From the IMG/VR virus record IMGVR_UViG_3300045995_000108, positions 32,001-96,000 of that record: a DNA stretch of 64,000 nucleotides; one strand, 5' to 3'. The DNA comes from a virus. How positions within the stretch are numbered: position 1 is the first letter of the stretch; each line of letters begins with the position of its first letter. Both the position numbers and the translations under genes were made by a program. Below the pieces are notes generated by a model. It worked only from the letters and a program-made list of their open reading frames with translations, was not told the DNA's origin and searched no databases. Of this stretch, positions 46,463 through 63,440 are shown in pieces.

Positions 46463-46756
46463 ATGTCAGATATCGAAGATCAAGACGACGGCGCTGAAGG
46501 CGTTCGCACATTTAACGGCGCAGCAAAGATTAAGCTCACACAATTATTCAATGATTCCCAAACTACATTGCGAGAAATTGAAGACTTGTCTGGTGGCCTA
46601 AACGACACAATCAAAGCTGTCGCGGAAGAACTTGAGATCAAACCTGGCTTGCTCAAACGTGCAGTGAAGATTGCATTCAAGGCTAAACTTGGTGAGACCA
46701 ATAAAGACCATGATGAATTAAATACTATTCTCGAAACAGTTGGAAAGACACTGTAA
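46463..46756 (+). CDS. small DNA-binding protein (T4 DsbA/GapR-like)
   Basis: DTIKAVAEELEIKPGLLKRAVKIA. Confidence 0.6.
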   Translation: MSDIEDQDDGAEGVRTFNGAAKIKLTQLFNDSQTTLREIEDLSGGLNDTIKAVAEELEIKPGLLKRAVKIAFKAKLGETNKDHDELNTILETVGKTL

Positions 46757-47109
46757 TGGCTTACTTTGGGTATCATTTAATGCTGGACTGCTCTGGCTGC
46801 AAGGGGATTGATTCCAAAGAAAACATTCATGCTTTCATTAAGCAATTGGTTCCCGACATCGACATGCTCGCATACGGTGAACCAATTATTGAATATTTGC
46901 TGCCAGGTGACCCGAAGCAAGGCTATAGTTTGATGCAGCTAATCACTACGTCAAACATTTGCGCTCACTTTATGGAACTGGATGGAACTGCTTACTTCGA
47001 TATCTTCTCATGCAAAGAGTTTGATGTTGAGTTGGCCAAACAAATCGTACACCAATACTTTAATCCCGACAAAATGCGGGTCAACTTTTTAACACGAGAT
47101 GCGTCTTGA
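46756..47109 (+). CDS. speD: pyruvoyl-dependent S-adenosylmethionine decarboxylase family
   Basis: GYHLMLD..GC, LITTSNICAH, DIFSCKEFD. Confidence 0.8.
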   Translation: MAYFGYHLMLDCSGCKGIDSKENIHAFIKQLVPDIDMLAYGEPIIEYLLPGDPKQGYSLMQLITTSNICAHFMELDGTAYFDIFSCKEFDVELAKQIVHQYFNPDKMRVNFLTRDAS

Positions 47110-47396
47110 CAGCTTTTATTAATGGAATAGTTAATTGGGCAAAACGCGATTACCATGAATGGCCATTGCGATTTATTTTCGAGGTATCTGCATGGTTTGC
47201 GAGTATTGGTTGTGCGCTGACTATGGCACTCACAATTCCTAACCCTCCCTTCCTTATTCTTTATCCACTATTCATTTCTCAATGTATGGTTTTTGGTTGG
47301 TCAGCTTGGACTCGAAAGAGTACAGGAATGGTCGCCAACTACTTGTTACTCGTTAGCATTGACTCTGTGGCACTGGTTCGTTTATTATTGCACTAA
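47106..47396 (+). CDS. small three-TM membrane protein
   Basis: Hydrophobic; NPP...YP. Confidence 0.6.
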   Translation: MTAFINGIVNWAKRDYHEWPLRFIFEVSAWFASIGCALTMALTIPNPPFLILYPLFISQCMVFGWSAWTRKSTGMVANYLLLVSIDSVALVRLLLH

Positions 47397-47408
47397 CAGG
47401 AGTTTATT

Positions 47409-50144
47409 ATTAGTTACGTAGACGGCATTCACGATAGGGCAAAAGACATAATCCACGTTGTCGAACGTGTGAATGGTGAGCGGGTATACAAAGAGTATCC
47501 CGCTAACTATGTCTTTTACCAAGACGACGCAAAGGGTAAGTTTCGCACTATCTTTGATACACCTGTAACCAGGTTCAGTTCAAGGTCTGGCAAAGAGTTT
47601 CAAAAGGAACTTGCCATGGCTAAGGGCTCTGGTAAGAAGGTATGGGAAAGCGACTTTAAGCCAATCTTCCGCTGCTTGGAAGAAAATTACCTCCATGCAG
47701 CATCCCCAAAGCTACACACAGCATTCTTCGACATTGAGGTGGATTTCCACCAAGAGAAAGGCTACTCTAAGCCTGAAGATCCGTTCAATGCTATTACTGC
47801 GTTCTCAATCTATCTTGACTGGTCAGACAAGCTAATTACTTTGGTATTGCCACCTAAGTCGTATAGCTGGGAAACTGCGGAAGAGATTTGCAACAAGTTT
47901 GAAAACTGTATCCTCTTTGACAGCGAAGAAGAAATGCTTAAAACATTCTACGCTATCATCGACGATGCAGACATCTTAAGCGGCTGGAACAGTGAGGGCT
48001 TCGATATTCCGTACACTGTTATGCGTACTATTCGCATACTGAGTAAGGACGATACTCGCGGCTTCTGCTTGTGGGGTCAACTACCCAAGCAACGTATGTT
48101 TGAACGTTATGGTACAGAGTCAATGACATTTGATACCGTGGGCCGTGTGCACATGGACTATATGCAACTGTATCGCAAGTACACCTACGAAGAACGTCAT
48201 TCCTATTCCCTAGATGCTATTGCTGAGTATGAGTTGGGTGAGCACAAGACCCCATACGAAGGAACACTAGACCAATTGTACAATCAAGACTTTGCGAAGT
48301 TTATTGAGTACAACCGCCAAGATACCATGTTGTTATCCAGGCTCGACACGAAGTTAAAATTCATCGACTTGGCGAACGAACTTGCACATGAAAACACTGT
48401 GCTATTACCAACCACGATGGGCGCGGTTGCAGTTACTGAGCAAGCTATCATTAACGATGCTCACAGTAGAGGTATGATTGTTCCTAACAGAAAGGCCAGA
48501 GATGAACAAGGTGAAACGCAAGCCGCAGGTGCCTATGTTGCTAATCCCAAGAAAGGGATTCACAAAGACATCGGAGCAATCGACATTAACTCCCTCTATC
48601 CCTCGGCTATTCGTGCCCTCAACATGGGACCAGAAACAGTCGTCGGACAACTCCGCCCAATACTGACGGATGCATACTTAAAGAATAAGATGCTGCCTGA
48701 GGTTAAGAACGGCAGGACTTATGTGGGGTGCAGCCTGTCAGAAGCGTGGGAAGGTTTGTTTGGTTCCCTAGAGTACACTGCCGTTATGGACATGGACCCA
48801 AGCGTAGAGATTACGATTGACTGGGAAGCTGACGGCAACAGCACTACACACAGAGCAGACGAAGTTTGGCGTGCTGTGTTTGAAGGTGGTCAACCTTGGC
48901 TCCTATCTGCGAACGGTACTATCTTCCGTTACGACAAGAAGGGCATTGTGCCTGGTTTGTTGGAACGTTGGTACTCTGAACGTAAGGAAATGCAGGCTAA
49001 GAAGAAAGCTGCGACAGAGAAGGAAGATATTGCTTTCTGGGATAAGCGTCAGCTAGTTAAGAAGATTAACTTGAACAGCTTGTATGGTGCTCTACTTAAC
49101 GGTGGTTGCAGGTTCTTTGACCATCGTATTGGACAGTCTACTACGCTATGTGGTCGCGTTATTGCACGTCACATGGATGCACACGTTAACGAGGCAATCA
49201 CTGGTGTTTATGATCACTTAGGTGACGCTGTAATCTACGGTGACACTGACTCTGTTTACTTCTCTGCTTGGAAGACGATTGAAGCAGATGTTAAAGCAGG
49301 CAATATGACATGGGACCGTGATACTTGTGTGCAACTGTACGACAAGATTGCAGACTCCGTTAACGACAGTTTCCCTACGTTCATGGAAAAAGCATTCCAT
49401 TGCCCACTTGAGATGGGCGGCATCATCAAGGGCGGTCGTGAACTGATTGCGTCTCAAGGATTGTTCATTACCAAGAAGCGTTACGCTGTATTGATTTTCG
49501 ATATGGAAGGTACACGCTACGACTTGATGGACGAAGCAACTGCTAAGAAGAAGGGTGTTATCCCGCACACAGGTAAAGTAAAAGCTATGGGCTTGGACTT
49601 GAAGCGTTCTGACACACCTAAGATCATGCAAGAGTTCTTGATGGAAATTCTGACTGACTTGCTTACTGACAAGGGCAAAGACCTTATCATTGACAAGATC
49701 AAGACGTTCAAGCAGAAGTTTGCTGATCTTCCAGCATGGGAAAAGGGCACACCAAAGCGTGTCAATAACTTGACAAGCTATGGGCAAAAGGAAAAAGACT
49801 CTACTACTGGTAAAGCTAACATGCCAGGTCACGTTCGCGCAGCTATCAACTATAACAGACTGAAGCGTTTGTATGGTGATAATGTGTCGCAAAGTATCGT
49901 GGACGGTATGAAAACTATTGTGTGCAAGCTAAAGGATAATCCATTGGGTTATACTAGCGTGGGTTATCCAACTGACTTGGCGCACGTACCGCAGTGGTTT
50001 AAAGAGTTACCATTCGACCAAGACAAAATGGAGATGACTATCGTGAACCAAAAGGTGGAAAACTTGTTGAGCGTACTTGACTGGGATATTACCGCAAGTA
50101 CGGACATTAACAGCACCTTTGAATCATTGTTTAGTTTTGACTAA
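47409..50144 (+). CDS. family B DNA polymerase (gp43-like), probable ATT start
   Basis: DIEV exonuclease I motif, DINSLYPS, KINLNSLYG, YGDTDS; SD AGGAG 6 nt before in-frame ATT. Confidence 0.95.
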   Translation: MSYVDGIHDRAKDIIHVVERVNGERVYKEYPANYVFYQDDAKGKFRTIFDTPVTRFSSRSGKEFQKELAMAKGSGKKVWESDFKPIFRCLEENYLHAASPKLHTAFFDIEVDFHQEKGYSKPEDPFNAITAFSIYLDWSDKLITLVLPPKSYSWETAEEICNKFENCILFDSEEEMLKTFYAIIDDADILSGWNSEGFDIPYTVMRTIRILSKDDTRGFCLWGQLPKQRMFERYGTESMTFDTVGRVHMDYMQLYRKYTYEERHSYSLDAIAEYELGEHKTPYEGTLDQLYNQDFAKFIEYNRQDTMLLSRLDTKLKFIDLANELAHENTVLLPTTMGAVAVTEQAIINDAHSRGMIVPNRKARDEQGETQAAGAYVANPKKGIHKDIGAIDINSLYPSAIRALNMGPETVVGQLRPILTDAYLKNKMLPEVKNGRTYVGCSLSEAWEGLFGSLEYTAVMDMDPSVEITIDWEADGNSTTHRADEVWRAVFEGGQPWLLSANGTIFRYDKKGIVPGLLERWYSERKEMQAKKKAATEKEDIAFWDKRQLVKKINLNSLYGALLNGGCRFFDHRIGQSTTLCGRVIARHMDAHVNEAITGVYDHLGDAVIYGDTDSVYFSAWKTIEADVKAGNMTWDRDTCVQLYDKIADSVNDSFPTFMEKAFHCPLEMGGIIKGGRELIASQGLFITKKRYAVLIFDMEGTRYDLMDEATAKKKGVIPHTGKVKAMGLDLKRSDTPKIMQEFLMEILTDLLTDKGKDLIIDKIKTFKQKFADLPAWEKGTPKRVNNLTSYGQKEKDSTTGKANMPGHVRAAINYNRLKRLYGDNVSQSIVDGMKTIVCKLKDNPLGYTSVGYPTDLAHVPQWFKELPFDQDKMEMTIVNQKVENLLSVLDWDITASTDINSTFESLFSFD

Positions 50145-62329: not shown

Positions 62330-62557
62330 ATGAACGAACGAATTAAAGAACTTGCTGATCAGGCTTGGCAATATGCCGACAAATACAGCCACGATGGTGA
62401 TGGCAGACACGGCCACTTGTATCGTAATAAGTTCGCCGAGTTGATTGTTCAGGAATGTTGCAGCATTGTCTTGAATACTGAAATCGAGACAAATAATAAT
62501 GCAATGCTTCGTGGCGAAATTGCATCTAGGCTTGTGAAATTTATTAAGGAGAATTAA
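62330..62557 (+). CDS. hypothetical phage protein
   Basis: MNERIKELA...KFAELIVQEC. Confidence 0.6.
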   Translation: MNERIKELADQAWQYADKYSHDGDGRHGHLYRNKFAELIVQECCSIVLNTEIETNNNAMLRGEIASRLVKFIKEN

Positions 62558-62558
62558 A

Positions 62559-63440
62559 ATTTTTGGAACTAATGAAATTATCGGCAAGAAATTTTTCCGG
62601 GACGCACCAGCAAACAGCTTGTTTGTGACAAGTATGTTCTTCACGTTGCAAGGTGAAGGTCCATACGCTGGTATGCCTGCGTTATTCATCCGTCTTGCAA
62701 AGTGCAACCTTGATTGCAGCTTCTGTGACACATTCTTTGACGATGGCGATTGGATGACGTTTGACGAGATCGACGAGAAAGTGATTGAAACCATTTCCCG
62801 TTACTGGACTGATAAAAACGAAGAAGTGCCAGACTGGGCAATTAGCCACAAAACATTCGGCCCAGTACATCCTGGTGTTGTGCTTGTTATGACTGGTGGT
62901 GAACCATTACTCCAAGAAAACATCTCCCTGTTTATGACTGGTATGTTGCCAATCTTCAAAGCTGTGCAAGTCGAAAGCAACGGCATTCCTGACACCGTAG
63001 TACCAGCTGGCGTTACGCTGGTCTGTTCACCCAAGTGTATGGAAAAGAACGGTGTTGCTACTAAGTATTTCTCGCCATCCAAAACTATTTTGGACCGTGC
63101 AGACTGTCTCAAGTTTGTAATGAGCGCAGATGAAGGCAGTCCTTACCACAGTGTACCAGAATGGGCACACGAGTGGAAAGAACGGACCGGCAAAGATATC
63201 TATTGCAGCCCGATGAACATTTACAATTCTTTCCCGCAGCAAATCAAATTGCTACGAGCAGAGAAGGGTGTTATTACGATGGCAGAGCGTTCCACAGTTG
63301 ACGAGGTCATCTCGTGGTGGGAACCGGGATTGCTTGACATGGCAAAGAACGAAGCGAACCATCGTTATGTTGGGCAATACTGTATGCAGCATGGATTCAA
63401 GATGCAGATGCAGATGCACTTGTTTGCGAGTTTAGCATAA
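62559..63440 (+). CDS. queE: 7-carboxy-7-deazaguanine synthase (radical SAM), probable ATT start
   Basis: FFTLQGEG, FIRLAKCNLDCSFCDT, TGGEP, ESNG, CSPK, QMH; SD AGGAG 7 nt before in-frame ATT. Confidence 0.92.
   Translation: MFGTNEIIGKKFFRDAPANSLFVTSMFFTLQGEGPYAGMPALFIRLAKCNLDCSFCDTFFDDGDWMTFDEIDEKVIETISRYWTDKNEEVPDWAISHKTFGPVHPGVVLVMTGGEPLLQENISLFMTGMLPIFKAVQVESNGIPDTVVPAGVTLVCSPKCMEKNGVATKYFSPSKTILDRADCLKFVMSADEGSPYHSVPEWAHEWKERTGKDIYCSPMNIYNSFPQQIKLLRAEKGVITMAERSTVDEVISWWEPGLLDMAKNEANHRYVGQYCMQHGFKMQMQMHLFASLA

What the first reader, a model, noticed from the sequence alone, without database searches (positions are those of the whole stretch)
47398..47470. DNA polymerase appears to start at AUU
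Seen: strong SD AGGAG (47398-47402), 6-nt spacer, then in-frame ATT-AGT-TAC-GTA-GAC (xSYVD...). There is no ATG/GTG/TTG in frame until codon 21, and that GTG lacks an SD. Established: AUU starts (E. coli infC, pcnB) are discriminated against by IF3, aided by IF1. Inference: polymerase output is gated by initiation-factor status.
Basis: partly seen in the sequence, partly recalled or inferred. Interest (0 to 1): 0.72.

Follow-up and report, generated by a model that had tools for sequence, protein, structure and literature searches.

The report
Phage DNA polymerase starting at AUU
The DNA-copying enzyme gene of an uncultured giant freshwater phage has no normal start codon and almost certainly begins at the rare, weak codon ATT behind a strong ribosome-binding site, as do a second gene of this phage and the same gene in many related phages, so gene finders cut these proteins short.

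Summary
AGGAG (47398-47402), a 6-nt spacer and ATT (47409) open a 911-codon family B DNA polymerase frame. The first in-frame ATG/GTG/TTG is GTG at codon 21, and it has no Shine-Dalgarno (SD).

About 160 relatives and cultured phages (Phosso: MSYVDAIH) start at exactly this codon. Residues Y3, D5, E19 and R20 are invariant. Model residue 1 superposes on RB69 gp43 residue 3.

Contigs from three other samples carry the identical ATT, so it is not a one-off assembly error.

The pattern extends beyond this one gene:
- A QueE-like gene in the same window (ATT 62559 behind AAGGAG) shows the same thing.
- One close relative has ATC at the polymerase start.
- In a sister clade, 10 of 49 polymerase genes start at ATT or ATC, always behind strong SDs. 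This arose at least 5 times, and some have no canonical start before codon 176.

I put about 0.85 on AUU being the real start, and it probably lowers polymerase synthesis.

This scan had already found AUU-started phage polymerases in at least 40 other genomes. It is a new member of a known kind (infC, pcnB).

The parts
47106..47396 (+). Upstream 96-aa hydrophobic protein gene (TTG start, TAA stop at 47394-96). It is in the same frame as the polymerase and ends 12 nt before the ATT.
   Evidence: ORF list and translation. tblastn finds homologs directly upstream of the polymerase in about 70 relatives, which keep a 70-85 nt spacer. No Pfam or PHROG family.
47398..47402 (+). Shine-Dalgarno sequence AGGAG
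   Evidence: Sequence. Duplex with ACCUCCUUA is -6.9 kcal/mol. The surrounding region 47340-47440 is less structured than shuffles, z = +1.5.
47403..47408 (+). 6-nt spacer TTTATT. It contains a first ATT at 47406, only 3 nt from the SD and unlikely to be used.
   Evidence: Sequence.
47409..47411 (+). ATT, the inferred initiation codon of the DNA polymerase. By established knowledge it is read by initiator tRNA as fMet.
   Evidence: It is homologous to the start codon of relatives: ATG 76, TTG 3, ATC 1 in IMG/VR; ATG 73 (plus one locus, L245, whose ATG lies one codon later), TTG 6 in metagenomes; Phosso ATG TCA TAC GTA GAC. It is identical in contigs of three other runs.
47409..50144 (+). Family B (T4/RB69 gp43-like) DNA polymerase, 911 codons plus stop
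   Evidence: Pfam PF00136 and PF03104. PDB phmmer hit to RB69 gp43, 2.5e-59. AF2 model of residues 1-400 against RB69: Z 33.3, model residue 1 on chain residue 3.
47469..47471 (+). GTG, codon 21 (Val). It is the first canonical in-frame start, the one a mechanical ATG/GTG/TTG ORF scan takes as the start; it is not the real start.
   Evidence: No SD, +0.1 kcal/mol. In 72 unique relatives this codon is GTA 25, GTT 17, GTC 17, GTG 6. Starting here would delete strands 3-9 and 14-21 and the invariant residues Y3, D5, E19, R20.
62546..62551 (+). Shine-Dalgarno AAGGAG of the QueE-like gene, followed by the 7-nt spacer AATTAAA
   Evidence: Sequence. Duplex -9.2 kcal/mol.
62559..63440 (+). QueE-like radical-SAM gene (7-deazaguanine pathway), a second gene whose start is ATT (62559-61). 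The first canonical in-frame start is TTG at codon 21 (62619).
   Evidence: PHROG 2076 QueE-like, 2.4e-44. 78 IMG/VR relatives align from residue 1 as MFGTNEI..., with start codon ATG 64, TTG 10, GTG 3, ATT 1 (L090). Cultured-phage homologs also align from residue 1. The upstream ORF 62330-62557 stops 1 nt before the ATT.

Best explanation
The window comes from a 115-kb fragment of an uncultured freshwater jumbo phage. Its replicative family B DNA polymerase is translated from AUU at 47409, placed by the AGGAG 6 nt upstream in an unstructured initiation region. By established knowledge the initiator tRNA reads the codon as fMet, so the protein begins (M)SYVDGIHDR.

Shown here:
- The homologous start position, the conserved N-terminus and its structural need.
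- The reality of the ATT in several samples.
- Recurrence of ATT or ATC starts at this gene in related phages, and at a second gene (QueE-like) of the same phage.

Inferred: the weak codon lowers polymerase synthesis to a fraction of what AUG would give, and the strong SD partly compensates. Published values for AUU relative to AUG range from 1-2% in vivo in E. coli, to about 10% behind extended SDs in S. aureus, to 48-74% in an optimised in-vitro context.

Also inferred: ribosomes finishing the upstream gene 12 nt away may help initiation by coupling. The result would be a set, low level of a replication enzyme that T4-type phages hold down by other means, namely gp43 autorepression at an operator hairpin.
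For: 1. Sequence: AGGAG, 6 nt, ATT; no canonical start until codon 21; no SD before that GTG.
2. Homology: Phosso begins ATG TCA TAC GTA GAC GCG ATT CAC = MSYVDAIH at the same codon. Atu_ph07 (MPFVD), PA5oct and a Vibrio phage (MYID) begin at or one codon after it. All 80 IMG/VR relatives and 78 of the 80 metagenome relatives (73-78% identity) align from residue 1; the other two, L244 and L245, align from residue 3. Start codons there are ATG 76, TTG 3, ATC 1 and ATG 73 (plus L245, whose ATG lies one codon later), TTG 6.
3. Y3, D5, E19 and R20 are invariant in 24 diverse polymerases. The AF2 model puts strands at residues 3-9 and 14-21. Model residue 1 aligns to RB69 gp43 residue 3, Z 33.3, rmsd 3.5 A over 370 residues.
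4. Contigs of three runs from other studies (river, wetland, pond) are identical over the start, with no variant at 47409-11.
5. The QueE-like gene at 62559 shows the same pattern, and relative L090 shares it.
6. In the sister clade, 10 of 49 polymerase genes start at ATT or ATC behind AAGGAG, AGGGAG or AAGGGGA. They have no in-frame canonical start upstream, and the first one downstream is as far as codon 176. The tree needs at least 5 switches, and one subclade has no ATG at all.
7. ATT and ATC sites have stronger SDs than ATG sites: mean -8.1 to -8.4 against -5.1 kcal/mol, Mann-Whitney p = 0.0017.
8. Literature: AUU starts work and are IF3-sensitive (10.1101/063800; PMC5499595; PMC13009471).
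Against: - No direct evidence of translation: there is no ribosome profiling, proteomics or reporter assay, and phage and host are uncultured.
- The nearest relatives available (at most 78% identity) almost all have ATG. In the window's own lineage the ATT is therefore derived, and its age is unknown.
- The three supporting samples carry an essentially identical strain at low depth (2.8-5.7x), seen as assembled contigs rather than raw reads. Their studies may belong to one campaign.
- The SD-strength comparison is not corrected for phylogeny.
- The size of the expression effect is unknown; published values span 1% to 74% depending on context.
- For relative L077 (ATC), an in-frame GTG 11 codons upstream, without an SD, cannot be excluded as the start.
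Confidence: 0.85

Rival explanations
1. Translation starts at GTG 47469 and gives an 891-aa polymerase lacking the first 20 residues. The ATT and AGGAG are leftovers of a start lost by an ATG-to-ATT mutation.
For: GTG 47469 is the first canonical start in frame. The nearest relatives have ATG at 47409's position, so the ATT is a derived single-base change.
Against: - No SD before the GTG, +0.1 kcal/mol.
- Codon 21 is an ordinary Val codon in relatives: GTA 25, GTT 17, GTC 17, GTG 6.
- The truncation removes invariant Y3, D5, E19, R20 and two predicted strands that match RB69 residues from 3 onwards.
- Residues 2-20 are still 53-79% identical to relatives, with no frameshift or stop.
- Sister-clade genes with ATT have no canonical start before codons 39-176.
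Confidence: 0.06
2. The ATT is a sequencing or assembly error, or belongs to a defective minority variant; the functional phage has ATG.
For: The contig is a metagenome assembly. Supporting contigs have low depth, 2.8-5.7x. ATG to ATT is one substitution.
Against: - Three runs not flagged as the source give contigs with 0 differences across the site, and no variant is listed at 47409-11.
- A second gene of the same contig has the same feature.
- ATT or ATC recurs in independent assemblies of related phages.
Confidence: 0.03
3. The polymerase is made as a fusion by read-through of the in-frame TAA (47394-96) of the upstream 96-aa gene, so no separate start is needed.
For: The upstream ORF and the polymerase share a frame, with only TAA plus 4 sense codons between them. 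Related complete genomes carry a suppressor tRNA.
Against: - That suppressor has anticodon CUA and reads TAG, not TAA.
- Relatives separate the same two genes by 70-85 nt containing stops.
- The upstream product looks like a small membrane protein, and a shared frame occurs by chance one time in three.
- The SD is placed for a separate start.
Confidence: 0.02
4. AUU and AUC starts are read by a phage-supplied component, such as an initiator-like tRNA with a GAU or AAU anticodon or a phage initiation factor, so they are not weak during infection.
For: Complete related genomes (353-385 kb) carry 45-49 tRNA genes and a tmRNA, showing heavy investment in translation. AUH starts recur in this group.
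Against: - In G006, whose polymerase starts at ATC, the tRNA-Ile(GAU) has a paired G1-C72 end and an ordinary anticodon stem. The CAU tRNAs keep the CAU anticodon.
- No IF3 domain was found in five related records or in this contig.
- The link between AUH codons and stronger SDs suggests the codon is indeed weak.
Confidence: 0.03

Closest known systems
E. coli infC (IF3) and pcnB (poly(A) polymerase I) AUU start codons
   Same: A conserved protein whose homologs start with AUG is initiated at AUU behind an SD. The codon is expected to lower output and to be discriminated against by IF3 with IF1 (10.1101/063800; PMC5499595).
   Different: - The gene is a phage replicative polymerase, not a host factor.
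- There is no autoregulatory logic as in infC, where the product is the discriminator itself.
- The codon is not fixed in the family but switches repeatedly among ATG, GTG, TTG, ATT and ATC.
- Initiation has not been shown experimentally.
S. aureus cvfC1 (AUU), ccpN, citZ and infC (AUA) starts behind extended SD motifs (PMC13009471)
   Same: A weak AUH codon paired with an unusually strong SD at a proper spacing. Reporters there give about 10% of the AUG level. Here too, AUH sites have stronger SDs than AUG sites.
   Different: The S. aureus codons are conserved across species and were mapped by Ribo-RET. Here the evidence is comparative only, and the host ribosome is unknown.
T4/RB69 gp43 autogenous translational repression (operator hairpin plus RBS; PMC3014915)
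   Same: The same enzyme family, and the same apparent goal of limiting polymerase synthesis at the initiation step. Close relatives of the window carry a covarying 6-bp stem with an 8-nt loop just 5' of the polymerase SD, which resembles that operator layout.
   Different: The window itself has no such hairpin. It uses a 12-nt junction with the upstream gene and a weak codon. Binding of the polymerase to the relatives' hairpin is untested.
AUU/AUA/AUC-started phage polymerase and replication genes noted earlier in this scan (e1-5369622, e1-5752626, e1-5966472 and others)
   Same: The same gene class, the same weak codons, the same strong SD, and the same truncation by gene finders.
   Different: Those are other genomes (T4-like soil phages, a 93-kb phage and others) and unchecked AI notes. 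This one is a jumbo phage of the PA5oct/Phosso/Atu_ph07 polymerase group, with a second AUU gene in a deazaguanine pathway.

Membership tests
Family B DNA polymerase, T4/RB69 gp43 type | DNA_pol_B polymerase domain and 3'-5' exonuclease domain | tested here: met
   PF00136 2.5e-33 and PF03104 1.8e-16. phmmer to RB69 gp43 chains, 2.5e-59.
Family B DNA polymerase, T4/RB69 gp43 type | Catalytic motifs: Exo I (D-x-E) and polymerase motif C (YGDTDS) | tested here: met
   The translation contains FFDIEVD and IYGDTDSVYF. D108, I109 and E110 are invariant in 24 relatives.
Family B DNA polymerase, T4/RB69 gp43 type | N-terminal domain fold beginning at the protein's first residues | tested here: met
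   AF2 model pLDDT 72.4 with strands at 3-9 and 14-21. VIA-align Z 33.3, rmsd 3.5 A over 370 residues, model residues 1-400 on RB69 residues 3-581.
AUU-initiated bacterial-type genes (infC/pcnB class) | No canonical start codon where homologs start; AUU occupies that codon | tested here: met
AUU-initiated bacterial-type genes (infC/pcnB class) | Shine-Dalgarno at a functional distance from the AUU, in an accessible region | tested here: met
   AGGAG with a 6-nt spacer, -6.9 kcal/mol. Fold z-score +1.5.
AUU-initiated bacterial-type genes (infC/pcnB class) | The non-canonical codon is kept among relatives | tested here: inconclusive
   The window's nearest available relatives (at most 78% identity) have ATG, TTG or ATC, not ATT. 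The identical ATT is present in three other samples. In the sister clade ATT/ATC is found in 10 of 49 loci, and one subclade has no ATG.
AUU-initiated bacterial-type genes (infC/pcnB class) | Initiation at AUU shown directly (N-terminal sequence, toeprint, Ribo-RET, reporter) | not testable with these tools
   Phage and host are uncultured.
AUU-initiated bacterial-type genes (infC/pcnB class) | Output responds to IF3 level or state | not testable with these tools
   Known only for E. coli systems (PMC5499595).
T4 gp43-type translational operator | Hairpin next to the SD of the polymerase gene | tested here: not met
   Absent from the window. Present with covariation in 25 close relatives.

The most novel reading that the evidence does not exclude
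Weak AUU/AUC start codons paired with strong SDs, placed just after the stop of an upstream gene, may be a selected and repeatedly re-invented control device in giant freshwater phages. The device would tie synthesis of the replicative polymerase, and of a DNA-modification enzyme, to the host's initiation-factor-to-ribosome state, temperature or ppGpp level, or to translation of the upstream gene. It would replace the operator hairpin that relatives use.
Probability: 0.2. Interest if true: 0.75.

Novelty: new member of a known kind. Interest (0 to 1): 0.55.

Why it matters
- Annotation: a mechanical ATG/GTG/TTG ORF scan places the first start of this polymerase frame at codon 21, so a start-codon set restricted to those three cuts off 20 residues here. 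In some relatives the loss would run up to 175 residues, or the gene would look broken. The QueE-like gene would lose 20 residues as well. Catalogues of phage proteins and N-terminal domain models inherit the error.
- Biology: the essential replication enzyme of a large group of environmental phages repeatedly adopts the weakest usable start codons. This suggests that a low polymerase dose is under selection, the same end that T4 reaches by autorepression.
- Testability: it offers natural series of ATG, GTG, TTG, ATT and ATC variants with matching SD changes, which can test how codon and SD strength trade off.
- Scope: I found no paper describing AUU starts on phage polymerases in the library searched. 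The scan itself has met the pattern in many genomes, so it may be widespread and overlooked.

Tried and rejected
- Megablast of 47100-48300 against cultured phages gave no match.
- Closer relatives were sought in IMG/VR and JGI metagenomes, but nothing above 78% identity was returned; near-identical records are withheld.
- Run X1 laid no contigs because of the filter, so it says nothing. Raw reads were not available, only Logan contigs.
- A scan of the whole 115-kb contig for further SD plus AUH starts gave four more candidates: 24598 on the + strand and 108683, 109794 and 4059 on the - strand. Three look like non-coding frames and one has a nearby ATG, so none was kept.
- There are no tRNA genes in this contig. 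No IF3 domain was found here or in five related records.
- No initiator-like tRNA with a GAU or AAU anticodon was found in the complete relative G006.
- A profile of the first 139 residues found nothing in the PDB by sequence, even at E = 10. The fold comparison was used instead.
- The upstream 96-aa protein shows no similarity to the gene in the same position in Phosso.
- An exact look-up of the GTG- and TTG-started truncated proteins found neither in the protein collection.
- The idea that the weak codon compensates for loss of the operator hairpin was rejected. Relatives with TTG or ATC starts (L036, L049, L055, L077) keep the hairpin.
Full report
**What is in the sequence**

One search shows TAA (47394-96), C, AGGAG (47398-47402), TTTATT, ATT (47409-11), then AGT TAC GTA GAC. 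The frame runs open to the stop at 50142-44, which gives 911 codons from the ATT. Between the in-frame TAA and the ATT lie only CAG GAG TTT ATT. The first ATG, GTG or TTG in frame is GTG 47469, codon 21.

The SD/anti-SD duplex is -6.9 kcal/mol before the ATT and +0.1 before the GTG. The region 47340-47440 folds less well than its shuffles, z = +1.5, so the site is open.

**What the gene is and where it comes from**

- The product is a family B polymerase of the T4/RB69 gp43 type: PF00136 and PF03104, 2.5e-59 to RB69 chains, with motifs FFDIEVD and YGDTDS.
- The window is bases 32001-96000 of a 115,428-base IMG/VR viral contig rated 29% complete.
- The closest cultured polymerases belong to jumbo phages: Phosso 51%, PA5oct 47%, Atu_ph07 46%.
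- Complete uncultured relatives are 353-385 kb long and carry 45-49 tRNA genes.
- Near-identical DNA occurs in river, wetland and pond metagenomes.

**Where homologs start**

Cultured phages:
- Phosso begins ATG TCA TAC GTA GAC GCG ATT CAC (MSYVDAIH), codon for codon on the window's xSYVDGIH.
- Atu_ph07 begins MPFVD behind CAGGAG.
- PA5oct and a Vibrio phage begin MYID one codon later.

Uncultured relatives at 73-78% identity:
- All 80 IMG/VR loci align from residue 1. The homologous codon is ATG in 76, TTG in 3 and ATC in 1.
- Of 80 metagenome loci, which partly overlap the IMG/VR set, 73 have ATG and 6 have TTG; one further locus (L245) has its ATG one codon later.

Codon 21 in these relatives is simply Val: GTA 25, GTT 17, GTC 17, GTG 6. 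The window's GTG is therefore not a conserved alternative start.

**Whether the first 20 residues are needed**

- In 24 diverse polymerases, Y3, D5, E19, R20 and R25 are invariant.
- An AlphaFold2 model of residues 1-400 (pLDDT 72.4) has strands at 3-9 and 14-21.
- The model superposes on RB69 gp43 with Z 33.3 and rmsd 3.5 A over 370 residues, with model residue 1 on chain residue 3.
- A start at codon 21 would remove the first two strands of the N-terminal domain.
- Residues 2-20 are 53-79% identical to relatives, so this stretch is still under coding constraint.

**Whether the ATT is real**

Thirteen runs hold the stretch. Laid contigs from three runs not flagged as the possible source are identical to the window across the start:
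- X6 covers 46941-48100.
- X7 covers 47378-47544.
- X8 covers 46900-47651.

No variant is listed at 47409-11. Depth is low (2.8-5.7x), and these are assembled contigs rather than raw reads. This rules out a one-off assembly error, not every population-level subtlety.

**The same feature elsewhere**

*A second gene in the window.* A scan of the whole contig for a strong SD followed by an AUH codon with no canonical start returned one further robust case. It reads AAGGAG (62546-51), AATTAAA, ATT (62559), then FGTNEIIGKKFFRD... This is a QueE-like radical-SAM enzyme (PHROG 2076) of the 7-deazaguanine locus. Its first canonical start is TTG at codon 21, with a weak SD of -3.5 kcal/mol.

All 78 relatives with a full match align from residue 1 as MFGTNEI. 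Their start codons are ATG 64, TTG 10, GTG 3 and ATT 1. The ATT case, L090, shares the window's SD and spacer, yet its own polymerase starts with ATG.

*The sister polymerase clade.* This clade is about 53% identical to the window and begins xY[VI]DALFKRGGD. Its 49 loci have ATG 29, GTG 8, TTG 2, ATT 8 and ATC 2.
- Every ATT or ATC follows AAGGAG, AGGGAG, AAGGGGA or AGGGGA by 6-7 nt.
- None has an in-frame canonical codon upstream.
- The first canonical codon downstream is at codon 176 in L253 and L272, 76 in L273 (a complete 369-kb genome), 72 in L287, 58 in L280 and 39 in L259. For those genes there is no alternative to an AUH start.

A maximum-likelihood tree needs 6 changes for the ATT label, at least 5 of them forced by well-supported branches. 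It also contains a subclade with ATT four times, TTG twice, GTG once and no ATG.

Across 162 unique polymerase initiation regions the mean SD duplex energy is -5.1 for ATG, -6.8 for TTG, -7.8 for GTG, -8.1 for ATT and -8.4 for ATC. ATT plus ATC against ATG gives Mann-Whitney p = 0.0017, without phylogenetic correction.

**Mechanism**

*Shown.* The start position, its SD, its openness, and the recurrence of the arrangement.

*Established elsewhere.*
- AUU is read by initiator tRNA.
- In E. coli only infC and pcnB are confirmed AUU genes, and AUU gives 1-2% of AUG in reporters (10.1101/063800).
- Behind extended SDs in S. aureus, AUU and AUA give about 10% of AUG (PMC13009471).
- In an optimised in-vitro context AUU gives 0.74 of AUG in rich-medium extract and 0.48 in minimal-medium extract. 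Excess IF3 halves this or cuts it by more than 60% (PMC5499595).

*Inferred.*
- The codon sets a low polymerase output, and the strong SD partly restores it.
- Both ATT genes lie within 1-12 nt of the stop of a real upstream gene. The 96-aa gene is conserved next to the polymerase in about 70 relatives. Terminating ribosomes may therefore feed the weak start.
- T4 and RB69 limit the same enzyme by autorepression at an operator hairpin next to the RBS (PMC3014915).

Many close relatives have a hairpin in just that place, whereas the window has collapsed the 70-85 nt spacer to 12 nt and lacks it. Weak codons and the hairpin coexist in some relatives, so one does not simply replace the other.

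It is not distinguished from plain attenuation by anything I could test.

**Rivals**

- Start at GTG 47469: argued against above (0.06).
- Assembly error or defective variant: argued against above (0.03).
- Read-through of the in-frame TAA (0.02). Relatives separate the two genes by spacers containing stops, and the suppressor tRNA seen in a relative reads TAG.
- A phage-encoded decoder for AUH starts (0.03). There is no IF3 domain, and no initiator-like tRNA with a matching anticodon in the complete relative G006.

**Comparison and novelty**

The mechanism belongs to the known infC/pcnB kind. I found no paper on AUU-started phage polymerases in the searched library.

Earlier notes of this scan report the same thing in at least 40 other genomes. 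These are unchecked leads, and they agree with what I measured independently here. I rate this a new member of a known kind, with moderate interest. Its value lies in the annotation consequence and in the strength of the recurrent, SD-compensated pattern on an essential replication gene.

Noticed in passing
window 62546-63440: The QueE-like radical-SAM gene of the deazaguanine locus also starts at ATT (62559) behind AAGGAG, 1 nt after the upstream gene's TAA. Relatives start MFGTNEI at the same codon: ATG 64, TTG 10, GTG 3, ATT 1.
   Followed up: yes
L007, L016, L019, L030, L032, L049, L055 and others, about 20-45 nt upstream of the polymerase start (alignment A1): A conserved element sits just 5' of the polymerase SD in close relatives: GCATGTAGAG, a 6-bp stem, and an 8-nt loop GCYNNAAR. 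95.5% of cells are paired, and 5 of 6 pairs show compensatory changes (24 double-change cells against 6.1 in shuffles). One polymerase-type copy is found per relative contig. It is absent from the window. It may be a gp43-like translational operator.
   Followed up: partly
L006, L009, L011-L015, L017 upstream of the polymerase start: Another subgroup of relatives has no SD. Instead it has TTGACT, 17 nt, TAAAAT, 6 nt, ATG, which looks like a promoter giving a leaderless or near-leaderless polymerase mRNA.
   Followed up: no
L256-L293 (sister clade) at the polymerase start: ATG members overlap the upstream gene's stop (GGT TAATG), a classic sign of translational coupling. ATT and ATC members instead have TAAGGGGA or TAAGGAG, where the stop is part of a strong SD.
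   Followed up: partly
G006 (369-kb complete relative): L357-L360: This genome carries 47 tRNA matches, including three CAU tRNAs, a long tRNA-Ile(UAU), and a CUA (amber suppressor) tRNA, plus a tmRNA with tag ANDSFYTEALAA. The suppressor hints at possible TAG recoding in this phage group.
   Followed up: no
whole 115-kb contig (G000): Among 86 SD-supported ORFs of at least 60 codons, the start codons are ATG 58, TTG 19 and GTG 9. TTG is unusually common (22%). AGGAG is rarer on the coding + strand (39 copies) than on the - strand (56).
   Followed up: partly
window 46756-47409: There is a tight operon: a SAM-decarboxylase-like gene (46756-47109), overlapping by 4 nt the 96-aa membrane-protein gene (47106-47396), followed 12 nt later by the polymerase. 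Relatives keep a 70-85 nt spacer at the last junction.
   Followed up: partly
L077 = L166 (IMGVR_UViG_3300010158_004220) at 1501: A close relative has ATC at the polymerase start behind AAGGAG (AATTATC spacer) and keeps the hairpin. An in-frame GTG 11 codons upstream, inside the hairpin and without an SD, is an alternative start that a gene finder restricted to ATG/GTG/TTG could choose instead.
   Followed up: partly
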